DNA of 64,000 nt from Myxococcales bacterium (GTDB lineage: Bacteria > Myxococcota_A > Polyangia > Polyangiales > DASUME01), in contig JASGJH010000001.1 in assembly GCA_047601445.1 (NCBI GenBank), forward strand, positions 896,001 to 960,000. The letters are read 5' to 3'. Shown here one piece after another: positions 18,191-56,230 of this stretch. The position numbers and the translations under genes are program-made. The notes below the pieces were generated by a model that worked only from the letters and a program-made list of their open reading frames with translations, was not told where the DNA came from and searched no databases. The first letter of the stretch is position 1. Each line of letters begins with the position of its first letter.

Positions 18191-18363
18191 CGTTCCTCGC
18201 CTGCGGGTGCGTGCCCCGCCCTCATGGGTAGTACGAGCGGCCCCTTGCCGCCAGATTTTCTCGGTGGTAACGCGGGCGTCGGAGTGGTCACTCGGGCGTG
18301 GGTCGAGTTCTAAGGGGTCGATGCGCCCTCGGGCGCGCAAGCAGAGAATGGAGAGCGTGCAAG

Positions 18364-19209
18364 GTGGCCCACAAGAGCGCTCGTTGGAACGGACAGGCGA
18401 TTTCGGTTTCGCCCATCGGAATCTTCCGCTCCCCGTTTCGGGAGCGCATGGACGCACCGCGCCAGGCGCGGGTGGCCGCCGAGACCGAGGGGCGCGTGGA
18501 GCTCTTCGAGGGGCAAGGCTACGAGGACGCGCTGTCCGACCTGGATCGGTTCGACCACCTCTGGCTGGTCTTCTGGTTCGACCGCAACGTGGGCTTTCGG
18601 CCCAAGGTGCTGCCCCCACGGAGCGCCGTGAAGCGCGGTGTGTTTGCCACCCGTGCTCCCTATCGCCCCAACCCCATCGGCCTCAGCGCGGTGGAGCTGG
18701 TGGGCATCGAGGGGCTCACGGTTCACGTGCGCGGCGTGGACTTGCTCGACGGCACTCCGGTCCTCGATCTCAAACCTTATGTGCCCTACAGCGACGCCAT
18801 CCCACAGGCCAGTCACGGCTGGCTCGAGCTTCCGACGGGGCAGGGCGAGCGCCCGCGAGATCCACTGCCTGCCTATGCCGTCACGTTCGCTCCGCTGGCC
18901 GAGCAGCAGCTGGCGTTCCTACGAGACGAGCAGGGGCTCGAGTTGGGGCCTCGGGTCGAAGAGGTCTTGAGGCTCGGCCCCACGCCCCACGCCTATCGAC
19001 GCATCCGCCGTGAGCCCGACGGCCCCGAGGGGGCCGGCTACGTGCTCGCGCTCAAGGACTGGCGCGTGCGCTTCAGCGCCCAGGGCGAGCAGATCACGGT
19101 GGTCTCGCTGCACAGCGGGTACCGCCCGAGTCAGCTGTTCTCCGAGCCCGCGCAGGCCCCCGAGGTCCATCGCGCGTTCGTGGCCAAGTGGGCTACGCTG
19201 CTGCCATGA
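18364..19209 (+). CDS. trmO: tRNA N6-methyl-t6A37 methyltransferase TrmO (TsaA)
   Basis: PIG.FRSPF, APRQ, GVFATRAPYRPNPIGLS and GVDLLDGTPVLDLKPY motifs; start uncertain. Confidence 0.9.
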   Translation: MAHKSARWNGQAISVSPIGIFRSPFRERMDAPRQARVAAETEGRVELFEGQGYEDALSDLDRFDHLWLVFWFDRNVGFRPKVLPPRSAVKRGVFATRAPYRPNPIGLSAVELVGIEGLTVHVRGVDLLDGTPVLDLKPYVPYSDAIPQASHGWLELPTGQGERPRDPLPAYAVTFAPLAEQQLAFLRDEQGLELGPRVEEVLRLGPTPHAYRRIRREPDGPEGAGYVLALKDWRVRFSAQGEQITVVSLHSGYRPSQLFSEPAQAPEVHRAFVAKWATLLP

Positions 19210-25191: not shown

Positions 25192-25686
25192 CTACTTGAG
25201 CTTGGTCTTGCTGCCGGCGAGGCGCAGCACGTGGTTGAACTCGCCAGCCTGCACGGGTTGCACACTCAGGCGCATGCCGCGCTTGATCACGAGCATCTCC
25301 TGGCACTTGGGGTCGCTCTTGAGCTGGTCGAGGGTGACGAACTCGGGGAACTTCTCCACGAACTCCACGTCCACGCGATCCCAGCGCGGCGCTTCGGGCT
25401 TGGACTTGTCGTCGTAGTAAGGGCTCTTGGGGTCGAACTGGGTCTCGTCGACGTAGGCCTCGCGGCCGATGCGCATGAGCCCCACCACGCCCGGCGGAAT
25501 CACGCTCGAGTGGTAGAAGAAGGCGAGGTCCCCGAGCTGCATGTTGCGCATGTGATTGCGGGCCTGGTAGTTGCGCACGCCTTCCCAGGTGCCGCGGTCG
25601 GCCTTCTTGAGGTCGTCGATGGAATAGACATCCGGCTCGGATTTCATCAACCAGAACTGCGGGGTGCGCTTGGTGGACTTCGGCAT
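25192..25686 (-). CDS. EVE domain protein
   Basis: FWLMKSEP, WEGVRNYQARN, FFYHSS and RLSVQPV motifs. Confidence 0.93.
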   Translation of the reverse strand: MPKSTKRTPQFWLMKSEPDVYSIDDLKKADRGTWEGVRNYQARNHMRNMQLGDLAFFYHSSVIPPGVVGLMRIGREAYVDETQFDPKSPYYDDKSKPEAPRWDRVDVEFVEKFPEFVTLDQLKSDPKCQEMLVIKRGMRLSVQPVQAGEFNHVLRLAGSKTKLK

Positions 25687-25771
25687 GGGCAACGGCTGTG
25701 CTCTACGGAACTTGTCGGCCCCTGGCAACGCGGCGTTGACTTCTCGCCGCCTGCGCTCTAACCGCTACTCC

Positions 25772-27947: not shown

Positions 27948-28124
27948 TTAGCGGCGGCCCTTGAAGCCCATCATGCCTTGAACCACGGATTCACTCTGTT
28001 TGGCGACTTCGTGCTCTTCGCGGGCACGGTCGGCGCAGTCTTCGCAGAGCTTCTTGGCGCGCCCGTCGACCTTGACGCTGACCAACTCGTCGACCTCATC
28101 CCCACAGCTACGACAGACCGGCAT
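27948..28124 (-). CDS. Small zinc-finger-like protein (58 aa)
   Basis: MPVCRSC...KKLCEDC with two CxxC pairs, then a helical tail; GGAG upstream of ATG 28124. Confidence 0.7.
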   Translation of the reverse strand: MPVCRSCGDEVDELVSVKVDGRAKKLCEDCADRAREEHEVAKQSESVVQGMMGFKGRR

Positions 28125-28271: not shown

Positions 28272-29108
28272 GTGACGCTCGCACCTGGTTTCGTCCGGTT
28301 ATCGATACGACCTCTCCCGAGCTGGCTCGACGTGAGCCGGCTGCTTGGGCGTGAGCCCGAGGAACTCGCGCCGCTCGGGGAAGGCGAGTTCTCGGCGACA
28401 CTGGTCCTGCCGAGTTCCGAGGCCGCCCTGATTGCAGCTCGGCTGCGTGCGCTGGGGCTCGACGGCAAGCCTCTGGAAGTGATGGCGAAGCCAGCCCTCG
28501 GGCGCAGCGCGGTGCGAGCGGGTCGGCTGGCCGAGGCGCGTGAGCGCAGGGTCACCACACCAGGCTTCTTGCGTGCGGGCGCGCGCGCCACCGGGGAAGG
28601 GCGCTATTCGCTGACGCCGGAGGCGCTGGCCCTTCGGTTGGGCGAGCTGGCTGCAGGTCGCAGCGTGGTCGAGGCCTGCGTCGGAAGTGGCGGCAACAGC
28701 GTTGGATTCGCGAGGGCGGGCTGCCGGGTGCGGGGCTTCGACGTGGATGCGGAGCGCCTGGCGGAGGCCCGCCACAACACCCAGGTCTATGGGGTGGCCC
28801 AGCGCGTGGAGCTGGTCCAGGCAGATGCCCTCAGCGCCGTGCCCGGCGAGCGGGCCGAGATCCTGTTCGTGGATCCCCCCTGGGGGGGTGAAACCTACGA
28901 TAAGCGCTACTCGGACCGCACGACCTTCCCGCTGCTGGACCAGCTCTTGGCCCAGGATCTCTCCGGCTATCGCGAGGTCTGGATCAAGGTGCCAAACTCG
29001 TTTCGGGTGGCCAGCGTGGACGGGGCGCGGGCCGAGGCCTGGTTCGGCGAGGCGGCCGGGGACCGTCACCGCATCAAGTTCGTGCTGCTGCGACGTGAGC
29101 AGCGCTGA
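28272..29108 (+). CDS. Class I SAM methyltransferase, Tgs1 (RNA cap guanine-N2 methyltransferase)-like
   Basis: EGRYSLTPE, EACVGSGGN, ARHNTQVYGV and LFVDPPWGG motifs, matching the Tgs1 order EGWFSVTPE / DAFCGVGGN / ARNNAEVYG / FLSPPWGG as I recall it; start inferred. Confidence 0.75.
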   Translation: MTLAPGFVRLSIRPLPSWLDVSRLLGREPEELAPLGEGEFSATLVLPSSEAALIAARLRALGLDGKPLEVMAKPALGRSAVRAGRLAEARERRVTTPGFLRAGARATGEGRYSLTPEALALRLGELAAGRSVVEACVGSGGNSVGFARAGCRVRGFDVDAERLAEARHNTQVYGVAQRVELVQADALSAVPGERAEILFVDPPWGGETYDKRYSDRTTFPLLDQLLAQDLSGYREVWIKVPNSFRVASVDGARAEAWFGEAAGDRHRIKFVLLRREQR

Positions 29109-29263
29109 AGCGAAGAGTATTCCGAGAGCATTGCCGACGGTTGCCTGCTCGAGGGTGCAGGGGTAGGCTTCGCCGCCGATTCGTTCGGATAGTCAGAAAA
29201 CACACCCTTTACTGGACCGGCAGGCAGGGGCCGACGGGCCCAGACGGCGTGAGAGGACAAGAA

Positions 29264-29545
29264 GTGGCCAAGAAGAAACGCGGAAGATTCAACGAGGACG
29301 CGTTCGCCGCTGATGGCGAAGACGAGGACGTACGCGACGACCACGTCAAGCTCGATGGCGTGGTCACGCAGGTGTTCGCGGGCGGTCAGTTCGAGGTCAA
29401 CACGGATGCAGGCGCCGTCGTTCGCGCGCGCCTTTGCGGTCGCATGCGCAAGTACCGCATCCGCGTGATCCTTGGCGACAGGGTGACGGTGGCCCTTTCG
29501 CCCTACGACCTTAGCCACGGGATGATCGTCTTCCGCGCCAAGTGA
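29264..29545 (+). CDS. infA: Translation initiation factor IF-1 with N-terminal extension
   Basis: GRMRKYRIRVILGDRVTVALSPYDL.HG.IVFR; GAGAGGA RBS before GTG 29264. Confidence 0.93.
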   Translation: MAKKKRGRFNEDAFAADGEDEDVRDDHVKLDGVVTQVFAGGQFEVNTDAGAVVRARLCGRMRKYRIRVILGDRVTVALSPYDLSHGMIVFRAK

Positions 29546-43470: not shown

Positions 43471-45294
43471 ATGACGATTCCGACGAACCAGGTCGAACCA
43501 GGTTTCGTTGCGGCGTGTGTCCACGCAGCTCTGTGTCCGGGCTGCCCTCTGATCCGTGACAGTTACGGAGAGCAGCTGGCGAAGAAATCGCGCTGGGTGA
43601 AGGACGCGATGGCTGCGTACGCAGATCTCGGTTCGCTCGAGGTGGCCGATACCAGGCCGGCCGAGCGCGCGGAAGGCTACCGCACGCGGGCCAAACTGGT
43701 GGCCAATGCGCGCGGACAGCTGGGACTGTATGCCCGGGGCACCCACGACCTGGTGGACCTACCGGAGTGTCGCGTGCTGCATCCCGTGCTGTCGGGCGTG
43801 GCCGCCGCGCTGCGTGCGTCGATCGCGGGGCAGCCTCTCGAGGGGGTCGACATGTCGCTGGTGGGCGGCCAAGTGATGATCACCCTGATTGCAGCCCACG
43901 ACGCCGAGCGCGGACCCTTGCTGGAGTTGGCCGCCCGGCTGCGCGCACGCGTACCACAGCTAGCCAGTGTCGCCATCAGTCGCCGCAAGCCGGGCGCGGT
44001 GCAGCTTCTGGGCACGCAACATGAAGTCGTGTCAGGGCCGCCAGAGTTACAGGCCAGCAGCCCCGGGGCCCACGTTTATCATTACGCGGCCCATGGAGCG
44101 TTCCAGCAAGTCCACGCCGAGACCGCCACGAGCATCTACGCCCGGGTTCTCGAGCGGGTGCGCGCCGACGCGCAGGCGACGACGCCGCGGGTACTCGAGC
44201 TGTACGCTGGTTCGGGGGCACTGTCGCTGGCCCTGGCGGCGCAAGGAGCGAGCGTCAAGGCGGTAGAGAGCTTCGCACCTGCCTGTGAGCGTCTGACGCG
44301 TGCTGCGCGGGAGCAGGCGCTGGACGTGAGCGTGGTCGCGGGTGATGCCGGAGCGGTCACGCGGGCATTGGCCGAGCAGGCCGAACGCTTCGACCTGGTG
44401 GTGGTCAATCCTCCGCGCCGTGGTTTGGATCTGGACGTGCGCACGGCGTTGGCTGCCCTCGCGCCGCACCATCTCGCCTACGTCTCCTGCAATCCGCTCA
44501 CGCTGGCGCGCGACCTGGCGCAGCTCGCGCGGGCGGGCCTGTCGGCAACGCGACTCGAGCCCTTCGACATGATGCCGCTCACCGACCAGGTCGAGACGTT
44601 CGCCTGGATGTCGAGGGCTCCCGCGCCGCCGCCCCGCGTGCTGTGGGCCGAGGGGGAGCTGTTCGCTGTGGATCAGGCCGCCCACGAGTCGGCCTCGGAG
44701 GCGGGCGTAGGTTCGCTCTGGAGCCGAGTGCGTCGCCTGGCCGGCTATGCCGAGGCGGTGCCGATGTTCGACATCGACCCCAACCTTAGCGGTGTGTGCC
44801 TGTTCGCGACCTCGGCCCGGGCAGCCGAGGCGATCCGTCCGCGTCTGCGCCGAGTGGAGGAGGTCTATTGGGCGCTGGCCAAGGGCGTGGTGCACAAGCG
44901 CGGCAAGATCGAGCGCCCGCTCGCGGGGCGCAAGCGCGCGAACGCGGTGTGCACCCGCTACGAGCGCCTCGAAGTTCGAAGCGGCCATAGCCTGGTGCGA
45001 GCCGAGCGCGAGTGGGTGGGCTCGTCGGGCGAGTGGCACGCGTCGGGACCGCGCTCGGCCCAGGTGCGCGAGCACTTGGCCATGATTGGCCATCCGGTCA
45101 TCGGCGACACCCGGCGCGCTGATAGGGCCACCAGCCGACACTTCGAGATGCGCCACGGTCTCGACCGACCGTTCCTGCATTGCCAGGTTGTGCGGTTCGA
45201 GCTGGACGGGACGTCGTGCGAAGTGGAGTCGCCGCTGCCGCCAGATCTAAGTCAGGTCCTGCGTAGTCTGCAGACTCGCTTGCCGCCTGCGTGA
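43471..45294 (+). CDS. RlmD/TrmA-type RNA m5U methyltransferase fused to a degenerate RluA-type pseudouridine synthase domain
   Basis: CVHAALCPGC..LPEC Fe-S cluster motif, LELYAGSG, NPPRRG and YVSCNP.TLARD; C-terminal part has QVREHLAMIGHPVIGD, RPFLH and SPLPPDL. Confidence 0.82.
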   Translation: MTIPTNQVEPGFVAACVHAALCPGCPLIRDSYGEQLAKKSRWVKDAMAAYADLGSLEVADTRPAERAEGYRTRAKLVANARGQLGLYARGTHDLVDLPECRVLHPVLSGVAAALRASIAGQPLEGVDMSLVGGQVMITLIAAHDAERGPLLELAARLRARVPQLASVAISRRKPGAVQLLGTQHEVVSGPPELQASSPGAHVYHYAAHGAFQQVHAETATSIYARVLERVRADAQATTPRVLELYAGSGALSLALAAQGASVKAVESFAPACERLTRAAREQALDVSVVAGDAGAVTRALAEQAERFDLVVVNPPRRGLDLDVRTALAALAPHHLAYVSCNPLTLARDLAQLARAGLSATRLEPFDMMPLTDQVETFAWMSRAPAPPPRVLWAEGELFAVDQAAHESASEAGVGSLWSRVRRLAGYAEAVPMFDIDPNLSGVCLFATSARAAEAIRPRLRRVEEVYWALAKGVVHKRGKIERPLAGRKRANAVCTRYERLEVRSGHSLVRAEREWVGSSGEWHASGPRSAQVREHLAMIGHPVIGDTRRADRATSRHFEMRHGLDRPFLHCQVVRFELDGTSCEVESPLPPDLSQVLRSLQTRLPPA

Positions 45295-55519: not shown

Positions 55520-56230
55520 TCAAACGATTGGGCGGCGCTTTGGCTCGCCGGGTAGCCGCGGGTAGCGCGCGGGGGTGTGCGCGTGCTTTCGGATGCAGAC
55601 GACGGTCCCCGTACTGGTGCGTCTCGCGGATTCGAAGCGGCCTCCGAGGACGCCGAGCGCGCGCTGCGCCTCCTGCACTTCCTGCTCGGCCTGCTCTCCC
55701 TTGATCGCCAGCTTCACTCCGCCCACGCGGACGAGCGGCAACGAGAGCTCGAGCAACACGGGCAATCTCGACAGGGCGCGCGAGGTGGCTGCGTCGAAGC
55801 GCTCGCGCTCGGGGCCCTGTCCGAAGGTTTCGGCCCGCTCGCTCACCACGCGTAGGTTCGCGAGGCCCAGCGTGGCCGCCGTCTGCTCCAAAAAGCGCGC
55901 CTTCTTGCCGGTGGACTCCACGAGTGTGAACGACAGGGAGGGCAGGGCGAGCGCCAGCGGAATGGCGGGCAGTCCGCCGCCGGAACCGAGATCCACCACG
56001 CGCGCCCCTGCGGGCAAGGCCGACAGATCGCCAAACAAGCTGAGGCTGTCACCGACGTGCTTGACCCAGGCTTCACCGACGCTGGTGATGGCGGTGAGAT
56101 TGAAGGCCTGGTTGGCGGCCAGCAACAGCTCCAGATAGCTCGCCAGGCGCACTCCGAGCGGACCTCCGAGATCCACGCCGAACTTCGCGACTTCCTCGAT
56201 CACCGACGCGGGCACGCTCGCTGCAGACAT
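55520..56230 (-). CDS. rsmG: 16S rRNA m7G527 methyltransferase
   Basis: NLTAIT, KHVGDSL, DLGSGGGLP, ESTGKKARFL, SRA and TPARYPR.PG motifs. Confidence 0.93.
   Translation of the reverse strand: MSAASVPASVIEEVAKFGVDLGGPLGVRLASYLELLLAANQAFNLTAITSVGEAWVKHVGDSLSLFGDLSALPAGARVVDLGSGGGLPAIPLALALPSLSFTLVESTGKKARFLEQTAATLGLANLRVVSERAETFGQGPERERFDAATSRALSRLPVLLELSLPLVRVGGVKLAIKGEQAEQEVQEAQRALGVLGGRFESARRTSTGTVVCIRKHAHTPARYPRLPGEPKRRPIV

What the first reader, a model, noticed from the sequence alone, without database searches (positions are those of the whole stretch)
28272..29545. Bacterial Tgs1-like (cap trimethylguanosine synthase) methyltransferase next to IF-1
Seen: EGRYSLTPE, EACVGSGGN, ARHNTQVYGV and FVDPPWGG occur in the same order as in Tgs1, preceded by an extra N-terminal region of about 100 aa. 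infA follows 155 nt downstream on the same strand. Established: eukaryotic and giant-virus Tgs1 enzymes N2-methylate m7G caps using the S.TP and PPWGG motifs, and bacteria lack m7G caps. Inference: an uncharacterised guanine-N2 methylation of a bacterial RNA 5' end, a non-canonical cap, a free nucleotide or rRNA/tRNA, possibly tied to translation initiation.
Basis: partly seen in the sequence, partly recalled or inferred. Interest (0 to 1): 0.7.

Follow-up and report, generated by a model that had tools for sequence, protein, structure and literature searches.

The report
Bacterial cousin of RNA cap hypermethylase
This myxobacterium-like microbe carries a true relative of TGS1, the enzyme that over-methylates RNA caps in eukaryotes, joined to an RNA-binding-type domain, so these bacteria probably make an undescribed guanine methylation on their RNA; its position beside the IF-1 gene is only local gene order.

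Summary
The 278-aa ORF (28272-29108) is a Tgs1-clade methyltransferase. Pfam Methyltransf_15 scores E 9e-18; human TGS1 is the best solved match by sequence (E 8e-19, next 5e-4) and structure (Z 24.4, next 16.6). The genome has a separate RsmD.

The N-terminal ~95 aa fold as an RRM-like domain plus an invariant arginine-rich helix. The guanine pocket is kept (W766, S671, T673, DPPW, Y771, K836 equivalents). R807 is lost, W669 becomes Arg and F804 becomes Lys.

The gene is single-copy in 51 of 301 phylum genomes, fixed in whole families, and patchy in Verrucomicrobia. The infA link is genus-level synteny (3 of 80 loci), broken by inserted genes. The premise 'bacteria lack m7G caps' is too strong: E. 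coli m7Gp4Gm caps are published.

Best reading (0.45): single N2-methylation of a G or m7G inside tRNA or rRNA. Rivals: m7G-capped 5' ends (0.2) or free m7G nucleotides (0.15). No substrate is shown. Databases auto-label these proteins, but I found no paper on them, and the scan had not noted them. A shorter bacterial family with a fully eukaryote-type N-terminal cap-binding segment also exists.

The parts
28272..29108 (+). Gene for a 278-aa Tgs1-clade SAM-dependent methyltransferase ('group A' type)
28290..28490 (+). aa 7-73: beta-alpha-beta-beta-alpha-beta RRM-like domain. No RNP1/RNP2 aromatics; conserved W18, LLG, and AAxLxARLRG with R57/R59
   Evidence: AF2 pLDDT 95.9; VIA top hit TRMT2A RRM Z 7.5, rmsd 2.5, 68 aligned, most of the top 50 are RRMs; Foldseek best E 9e-3; conservation
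28503..28550 (+). aa 78-93: arginine-rich helix (R78 80/80, R82 79/80, R90 73/80, R93 80/80); net charge of aa 76-105 median +7. It precedes the part that superposes on TGS1 residue 649 onward
28551..28622 (+). aa 94-117: Tgs1-type N-terminal extension. F99 (about F655), E109 (E667), R111 (W669 replaced), S113 (S671), T115, P116
28623..29105 (+). aa 118-278: class I methyltransferase core. E134 (D696), N142, D157, N169, D185, DPPW 201-204, Y209 (Y771), K239 (F804 replaced), P241, N242 (R807 lost), S243, R267, K269 (K836)
29264..29545 (+). infA (IF-1) with an N-terminal extension. A neighbour by genus-level synteny, not shown to be a functional partner
27948..28124 (-). Divergent 58-aa zinc-ribbon-like gene, shared only with the closest relatives
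   Evidence: cluster 22: L001, L002, L004

Best explanation
A single-copy, cytoplasmic, SAM-dependent guanine-N2 methyltransferase of the Tgs1 clade that modifies a guanine inside a stable structured RNA (tRNA or rRNA). The target is either G or an existing m7G, such as those made by TrmB or RsmG. SHOWN: the fold, the pocket residues, the domain order and the distribution. INFERRED from TGS1 (PMC2709555): the base stacks on W204 and is capped by S113; the D201/P202 carbonyls activate N2; SAM binds through T115, E134, N142, D157 and D185. INFERRED, weaker: the RRM-like domain and arginine helix grip the RNA backbone; Arg at the W669 site, which lies near the ribose 3'-OH in TGS1, could hold a 3' phosphate; Lys at the F804 site limits the enzyme to one methyl group, giving m2G or m2,7G.
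For: (1) Pocket: S671, T673, N704, N731, D763, P765, W766, P806 and K836 equivalents are fixed in 39 of 39 group A proteins aligned, and Y771 is aromatic in 39 of 39. (2) Extra RRM-like domain, with a tRNA methyltransferase RRM as top fold match, plus about ten conserved arginines. (3) R807 (alpha/beta-phosphate contact) is not among the residues listed for group A; W669 is R in 37 of 39; F804 is K in 39 of 39. (4) Housekeeping-like pattern: one copy in each of 51 of 301 genomes, f22 10/10 and f17 6/6 against f2 0/23, f19 0/23 and f16 0/26. (5) No capping guanylyltransferase or cap N7-methyltransferase found in this 98.7% complete genome, while TrmB and RsmG are present. (6) Probable algal copies nest in group A and carry hydrophobic leaders, which fits an organelle with bacterial-type RNAs. 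(7) Precedents: the TGS1 pocket is used as the model for tRNA m2G10 enzymes (PMC7641767, passages), and a prokaryotic structural homolog of TGS1 methylates 16S rRNA (PMC11551388, passages).
Against: (1) Every tested Tgs enzyme described in the passages I read needs prior N7 methylation and works on free m7G nucleotides without RNA (PMC1865056, PMC2588526, PMC4615557). (2) Loss of R807 is weak evidence: the Giardia R186A mutant keeps 73% activity, and group C also mostly lacks it. (3) The RRM-like match is Z 7.5, within the range of a common arrangement, and its sheet face is variable. (4) The K646 equivalent cannot be assigned: one register gives E88, another R90. (5) No consistent link to RNA-modification or ribosome operons. 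(6) RsmD and an RlmL/TrmN-type gene are both present, so no missing m2G enzyme is being replaced. (7) The algal origin and plastid targeting are inferred, not shown.
Confidence: 0.45

Rival explanations
1. Bacterial cap hypermethylase. It keeps Tgs chemistry and converts m7G-bearing dinucleoside-polyphosphate caps (m7GpnN-RNA) to m2,7G caps, using the RRM-like domain and arginine helix to hold the RNA body; the mark would tune decapping.
For: E. coli small RNA carries m7Gp4Gm at about 1200 fmol/ug in stationary phase, and its methyltransferases are unknown (PMC7044304, passages). Whole Tgs pocket and N-terminal extension retained, Z 24.4. DPPW as in Giardia Tgs2 and mimivirus Tgs (PMC2709555). 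R90 may stand in for K646.
Against: None of the papers I read reports such caps in Myxococcota or an m2,7G cap in any bacterium. R807 is lost and W669 changed. No canonical capping genes were found.
Confidence: 0.2
2. It acts on free or damage-derived m7G nucleotides (m7GMP, m7GDP or m7GTP from RNA turnover, prey RNA or alkylation), marking them for disposal or salvage.
For: Eukaryotic Tgs enzymes accept m7GDP and m7GTP without RNA. The most recurrent neighbour is exonuclease III (xth): in 20 of 80 loci, 16 of them directly upstream, in 8 more f33 loci and about 1 kb away on the opposite strand in 3 f22 loci. A group C relative is fused to a CYTH domain (P0365).
Against: The xth-adjacent loci fall in one 50-row subtree and xth is not near the gene in this genome, so old synteny explains it. 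An RRM-like domain and long basic helix are not needed for a free nucleotide.
Confidence: 0.15
3. The pocket has been re-tuned to another amino group, such as cytidine N4 or adenine N6 in rRNA or tRNA, or a protein or small molecule.
For: The archaeal m4,2C synthase shares the TGS1 fold and methylates C918 of 16S rRNA (PMC11551388). The [DNS]PP[YFW] motif is shared by amino-methyltransferases. HemK/PrmB profiles give weak hits, E about 4e-7.
Against: That enzyme has DPPR; this family has W in 43 of 43 proteins found without motif selection. Those NCBIfam hits are 29 bits against cut-offs of 115-230. TGS1 leads all structure matches by about 8 Z units.
Confidence: 0.12
4. A functional partner of IF-1 in translation initiation.
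For: infA is adjacent here and in 2 of 6 same-genus genomes. In family f17 a B2-type homolog has rimP nearby in 5 of 6 genomes, directly downstream in 3. thrS follows in 2 loci.
Against: IF-1 is in 3 of 80 loci, tested with an HMM whose control found the divergent second IF-1 at E 9e-6. Among the wider loci L129-L168 it is in only two same-genus ones, separated by opposite-strand genes. The neighbours differ family by family.
Confidence: 0.04
5. A predator's weapon that hypermethylates eukaryotic mRNA caps to block translation in prey.
For: The hosts include predatory lineages (recalled, not tested). The pocket could bind m7G.
Against: No hydrophobic leader in 120 of 120 group A proteins scored. 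No recurrent secretion or immunity neighbours. Single-copy, family-fixed inheritance.
Confidence: 0.03

Closest known systems
Human TGS1 / eukaryotic trimethylguanosine synthase (PF09445; PDB 3gdh, 3egi)
   Same: Fold including the N-terminal extension (Z 24.4, rmsd 1.8, 179 aligned, 27% identity); stacking Trp, S-x-T-P, SAM residues, Y771, P806, K836.
   Different: RRM-like domain plus arginine helix in place of the KYW helix; S763 to D, W669 to R, F804 to K, R807 lost, N808 to S; bacterial host in which no capping enzymes were found.
Giardia Tgs2, Trichomonas Tgs and mimivirus Tgs
   Same: DPPW motif (Giardia Tgs2, mimivirus). Equivalents of Giardia's important residues F18, T40, D68, E91, N103, D140, P142, W143, Y148 and P185 appear present (mapping through human numbering is my inference). 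The single methylation reported for Giardia Tgs2 and Trichomonas Tgs is predicted here.
   Different: Extra N-terminal domain. Giant-virus models match less well (best E 3e-10, 17% identity) than human TGS1 (E 4e-13). These sequences were not in my trees.
THUMP-type m2G methyltransferases (Trm11, Trm14/TrmN, RlmL) and RsmD/RsmC
   Same: N2-guanine chemistry through [DNS]PP[YFW]; RNA-binding module plus MTase layout in the THUMP enzymes.
   Different: Z 15-16.6 at most; no THUMP Pfam hit; the genome has its own RsmD and RlmL-type genes.
Archaeal m4,2C synthase TK2045 (COG2521)
   Same: Prokaryotic structural homolog of TGS1 with an extra N-terminal domain, acting on RNA (PMC11551388).
   Different: DPPR motif and cytidine target. 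Only E 9e-7 to PDB 8vyd, which I take from recall to be that enzyme.
TRMT2A (RRM plus tRNA m5U54 methyltransferase)
   Same: Its RRM is the top fold match for aa 2-75; RRM-plus-MTase layout.
   Different: Different catalytic family; TRMT2A keeps partial RNP1/RNP2 with an exposed Phe (PMC8759985, passages), and this family has no conserved equivalent.

Membership tests
Tgs1/TGS1 cap guanine-N2 methyltransferases (PF09445) | Profile score above the curated cut-off and best of all families | tested here: met
   64.8 bits vs 22; next families 27.9 and 25.7 bits
Tgs1/TGS1 cap guanine-N2 methyltransferases (PF09445) | Class I core plus N-terminal extension that closes the pocket | tested here: met
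   model 94-277 on 3gdh 649-844, Z 24.4, rmsd 1.8, 179 aligned
Tgs1/TGS1 cap guanine-N2 methyltransferases (PF09445) | [S/D]PPW with stacking Trp766; Ser671, Thr673 on the opposite face | tested here: met
   D201, P203, W204, T115 in 43 of 43 and S113 in 42 of 43 of A1, found without motif selection
Tgs1/TGS1 cap guanine-N2 methyltransferases (PF09445) | Core residues Phe655 and Asn731 | tested here: met
   N169 43/43; F99 43/43, aligned to F655 by BLASTP. MAFFT places it two residues off, so the F655 assignment is likely rather than certain
Tgs1/TGS1 cap guanine-N2 methyltransferases (PF09445) | Cap-phosphate contacts Lys646, Tyr771, Arg807, Lys836 | tested here: inconclusive
   Y771 and K836 kept, R807 lost; K646 register ambiguous; R807 dispensable in Giardia Tgs2
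Trimethylating TGS1 (two rounds) | Hydrophobic Phe804 pocket proposed for the second methylation | tested here: not met
   Lys in 39 of 39 group A; F/Y/L in 21 of 21 eukaryotic sequences; role proposed in PMC2709555
Tgs1/TGS1 cap guanine-N2 methyltransferases (PF09445) | m7G-dependent N2 methyl transfer | not testable with these tools
   needs an enzyme assay
Tgs1/TGS1 cap guanine-N2 methyltransferases (PF09445) | Host makes canonical m7GpppN caps | tested here: not met
   no PF01331 or PF03291 match in the 98.7% complete genome; non-canonical caps not testable
RsmD (16S m2G966) | TIGR00095 / PF03602 above cut-off | tested here: not met
   PF03602 15.5 bits vs 24; the true RsmD is elsewhere in the genome at 124.5 bits
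THUMP-type m2G MTases (Trm11/Trm14/RlmL) | THUMP domain before the catalytic domain | tested here: inconclusive
   no THUMP Pfam hit in 66 N-terminal domains and none listed in the fold searches; PF01170 marginal, 25.7 bits vs 22.3, over aa 151-213 only
m4,2C synthase (COG2521) | DPPR-type motif without the stacking Trp | tested here: not met
   DPPW fixed; that paper notes its fourth Arg is loosely conserved
RRM | beta-alpha-beta-beta-alpha-beta fold | tested here: met
   Z 7.5 is below the level that excludes a common arrangement
RRM | RNP1/RNP2 exposed aromatics | tested here: not met
   positions 9, 11, 13, 41, 43, 45 (taken as the exposed face from the alternation pattern) are variable, aromatic in 20% or less

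The most novel reading that the evidence does not exclude
Bacteria have their own cap hypermethylation. This family N2-methylates m7G-bearing dinucleoside-polyphosphate RNA caps, and bacterial Tgs enzymes (this RRM-fused family, its longer cousins and the short group C) are the lineage from which eukaryotic TGS1 came, so cap-N2 methylation would predate the spliceosomal TMG cap.
Probability: 0.18. Interest if true: 0.88.

Novelty: new variant of a known kind. Interest (0 to 1): 0.62.

Why it matters
The Tgs family was described as apparently exclusive to eukaryotes, with only an uncharacterised related prokaryotic family (PMC2588526, passage), and later giant viruses. Here is a conserved bacterial branch much closer to human TGS1 than any other solved methyltransferase, with a new RRM-like fusion, present in cultured species (Haloferula rosea, Haloferula chungangensis, Enhygromyxa salina, Plesiocystis pacifica). 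It can therefore be assayed at once. Any outcome is informative: a new bacterial rRNA/tRNA mark (possibly m2,7G), a writer for methylated bacterial caps, or the ancestral activity of TGS1. It also gives the origin of the TMG-cap enzyme concrete bacterial candidates.

Tried and rejected
infA linkage as a functional clue: rejected. My first tblastn test missed this genome's own divergent second IF-1, so I redid it with an HMM and a positive control.

Replacement of a missing RsmD or RlmL: rejected, both are present.

First phylum count of 58 of 301 with PF09445: dropped. Five of the weak matches I opened scored only 39-42 bits with the family profile, three showing an RlmD-like DPPR motif, and one gave no hit. 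I replaced it with 51 of 301 from the family profile.

'K646 and F655 are lost' (my first reading): withdrawn.

'Eukaryotic TGS1 is nested within bacterial Tgs, sister to group C' (95 SH-aLRT, quick tree): not established. A tree holding all 49 prokaryote-type rows together scored 1.8 log units higher, p-AU 0.53.

Viral or plasmid carriage: none confirmed in IMG/VR with A1 or A4; one weak hit with A3 did not match the family HMM; no match in phage or plasmid records.

N-terminal domain by sequence: no Pfam family in more than 1 of 66 members; best PDB hit eL20 E 0.19; no Atlas hit. No THUMP domain was listed in the fold searches, which does not exclude it.

Promoter scan: 0 sigma-70 sites, uninformative. 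Expression: no RNA holder listed.

No complex prediction was run, because I do not claim binding to IF-1. Mouaikel 2003 (PMC169889) is not held; I know it only through PMC2588526.

Full report
OBSERVATION. The ORF runs from GTG 28272 to TGA 29108 on the + strand, 278 aa, and is the best coding frame. All four motifs are present in order, and infA starts 155 nt after the stop. The window lies in a 9.5-Mb single-contig genome, 98.7% complete. The closest named relatives are Polyangiales and Myxococcales MAGs.

WHAT IT IS. Pfam ranks Methyltransf_15 first (E 9.4e-18; the RsmD-type Cons_hypoth95 scores E 0.014). No NCBIfam model reaches its cut-off. Among solved proteins human TGS1 scores E 8e-19 and the next, archaeal Trm11, 5e-4; with the family profile the gap is 7e-30 against 4e-10. 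The AlphaFold model (pLDDT 96.7, 44 sequences) superposes on 3gdh over residues 94-277, N-terminal extension included, at Z 24.4, rmsd 1.8, 179 aligned; the next chains reach Z 16.6. Giant-virus models are more distant. This is a genuine Tgs1-clade protein.

POCKET. Human residue roles come from PMC2709555 (passages and sections 13 and 15), K836 from PMC7641767 (passages), and the Giardia mutants from PMC1865056 (passages and section 14). I aligned 39 group A, 18 B1, 36 C and 21 eukaryotic catalytic segments, subsets of what I held, on a primate TGS1. Group A keeps S671, T673, D/E696, N704, D/E719, N731, W766, P806 and K836 in 39 of 39, E667 in 35 and Y771 in 35 (aromatic in 39). It differs at S763 (D, as in Giardia Tgs2; S763D keeps 97% activity), W669 (R in 37), F804 (K in 39), R807 (mostly S, P or A) and N808 (S). 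F99 is invariant and BLASTP aligns it with F655, though MAFFT does not. The K646 equivalent is ambiguous.

N-TERMINAL REGION. Folded alone from 66 sequences (pLDDT 95.9), residues 7-73 form a beta-alpha-beta-beta-alpha-beta domain. Most of the top 50 structural matches are RRMs, led by the TRMT2A RRM at Z 7.5; Foldseek agrees at E 9e-3 or weaker. This shows the fold, not the function: the sheet face has no RNP aromatics, and conservation sits on the helices (W18, LLG, R57, R59). A helix with R78, R82, R85, R90 and R93 follows; aa 76-105 carry a median net charge of +7.

DISTRIBUTION. phmmer gave 350 hits among 8000 scored candidates. GTDB gave 147 confirmed stretches, of which the best 80 were kept: Myxococcota including Bradymonadia, Haloferula/Luteolibacter and one Oligoflexales, plus MAGs with other labels that fall inside the same tree. 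In 301 genomes of the own phylum, 51 have exactly one copy: 26 of the window's type and 25 longer types B1/B2 that share the second half of the RRM-like domain. Whole families are positive or negative. In the genus, 6 of 9 other, fragmented, genomes match. It is rare elsewhere: 4 of 201 in the order of G331; with the group C profile, 1 of 116 and 3 of 401. Among 44 full-length group A representatives only four exceed 320 aa, so bacterial fusions were not seen.

NEIGHBOURHOOD. IF-1 occurs in 3 of 80 loci; 78 had at least 600 nt and 66 at least 2 kb downstream. All three are in the query's 7-row clade. Of the 6 same-genus carriers, two have infA adjacent, two have it 1.5 and 2.9 kb away with opposite-strand genes between, and two contigs end first; these may overlap the 80. 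I scanned 134 flanking genes from 69 of the 80 loci (11 dropped where my gene picker missed the target) and 100 more from B-type and other loci. The neighbours are mixed. xth is the commonest (20 of 80, 16 directly upstream, one subtree). rimP lies near five f17 loci and thrS follows two. Each link is lineage-bound. The genome has RsmD, an RlmL/TrmN-type gene, TrmB and RsmG, and no capping guanylyltransferase or cap N7-methyltransferase match.

RELATIVES. The deep search also returned group C: about 205-aa bacterial proteins, named in Patescibacteria, Planctomycetes, Methylocystis and Deltaproteobacteria. Their N-terminal consensus QKYWDRRYxLFSxFDEGI (74 of 117 scored) mirrors the eukaryotic KYWxQRYxLFSxFDxGV. 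A quick rooted tree joins C with eukaryotes, but prokaryote monophyly is not rejected (p-AU 0.53), so the order of events is open. Giardia, viral and archaeal sequences were not included. Four sequences that I read as algal nest inside group A; three of them, and P0177, have signal-like leaders, scoring 1.8-2.7 against a group A 95th percentile of 1.8. I read Myb-like and TruD-like neighbours by eye in L112; Pfam did not confirm them, so the algal reading is an inference.

HOW IT MOST LIKELY WORKS. The chemistry is inferred from TGS1: base stacking on W204, N2 activation by the DPPW carbonyls, one methyl transfer from SAM. The substrate is the open question. I favour a guanine inside tRNA or rRNA (0.45), because of the added RNA-binding-type surface, the altered phosphate and 3'-side residues, and the single-copy inheritance. 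Against this, the Tgs enzymes tested so far need m7G and need no RNA. An m7G cap target is a live rival (0.2), because E. coli RNA carries m7Gp4Gm caps with unknown writers (PMC7044304, passages; PMC11253889, passages and section 16). Free or damaged m7G nucleotides (0.15) and another amino group, as in the archaeal m4,2C synthase (PMC11551388, abstract and passages; 0.12), follow.

NOVELTY. Automatic pipelines already label members 'trimethylguanosine synthase' or 'tgs1', so the homology is visible in databases. Nine literature searches listed no paper on this family, its RRM-like fusion or a bacterial Tgs activity; I saw listings only for papers not named above. The library lacks most subscription papers, including Mouaikel 2003, and I read no supplements; the homolog lists of PMC11551388 could bear on this. 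Other papers seen in passages: PMC4615557, PMC2588526, PMC8759985. Earlier scan notes showed only eukaryotic TGS1 cases. Verdict: new variant of a known kind; interest 0.62.

Noticed in passing
proteins P0268, P0307-P0423; loci L129, L170: Group C: short bacterial Tgs homologs with a full eukaryote-type KYW...LFS.FD.G segment, scattered over Patescibacteria, Planctomycetes, Methylocystis and Deltaproteobacteria. They are the closest bacterial look-alikes of TGS1. P0365 is fused to CYTH; P0246 to a deaminase, a Fic domain and another MTase.
   Followed up: partly
proteins P0126, P0131, P0144, P0177; loci L111-L113: Probable algal copies of the bacterial RRM-fused type with signal-like leaders, suggesting transfer to eukaryotes and organelle targeting.
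   Followed up: partly
proteins of alignment A5; loci L130, L132-L135: B1-type members (460-530 aa) carry about 250 extra N-terminal residues with no PDB match. By eye the start resembles a degenerate kinase N-lobe. In f22 a PP2C-like phosphatase gene lies just upstream and a metallophosphoesterase downstream.
   Followed up: partly
G000:C1:6642060-6642242 and window 29264-29545: Two IF-1 paralogs. The copy in the usual secY-adk-infA-rpmJ position is divergent, while the copy beside the methyltransferase is canonical-like with a basic/acidic N-terminal extension.
   Followed up: partly
L007, L010, L014 and 13 more; L081, L084-L086, L095, L096, L101, L110: xth directly upstream of the gene, often with abutting or overlapping ends, and a 640-aa aconitase-like gene (my reading) next upstream in many of them. 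Unexplained beyond old synteny.
   Followed up: partly
L136, L140, L141, L149, L150: In family f17 the B2-type gene sits between pyrK-pyrD and rimP(-nusA).
   Followed up: partly
window 55637-56146 (-) and 44182-44415 (+): rsmG (16S m7G527 MTase) and an RlmD-like MTase lie 26 and 15 kb downstream in the same window.
   Followed up: no
window 25192-25728 (-) and 18298-19209 (+): By eye, an EVE-domain-like gene and a TsaA/TrmO-like gene upstream; labels recalled, not tested.
   Followed up: no
L127 (G320): The homolog appears split into two frames (matches at 1372-2115 and 1784-2332), a frameshift or sequencing error.
   Followed up: no
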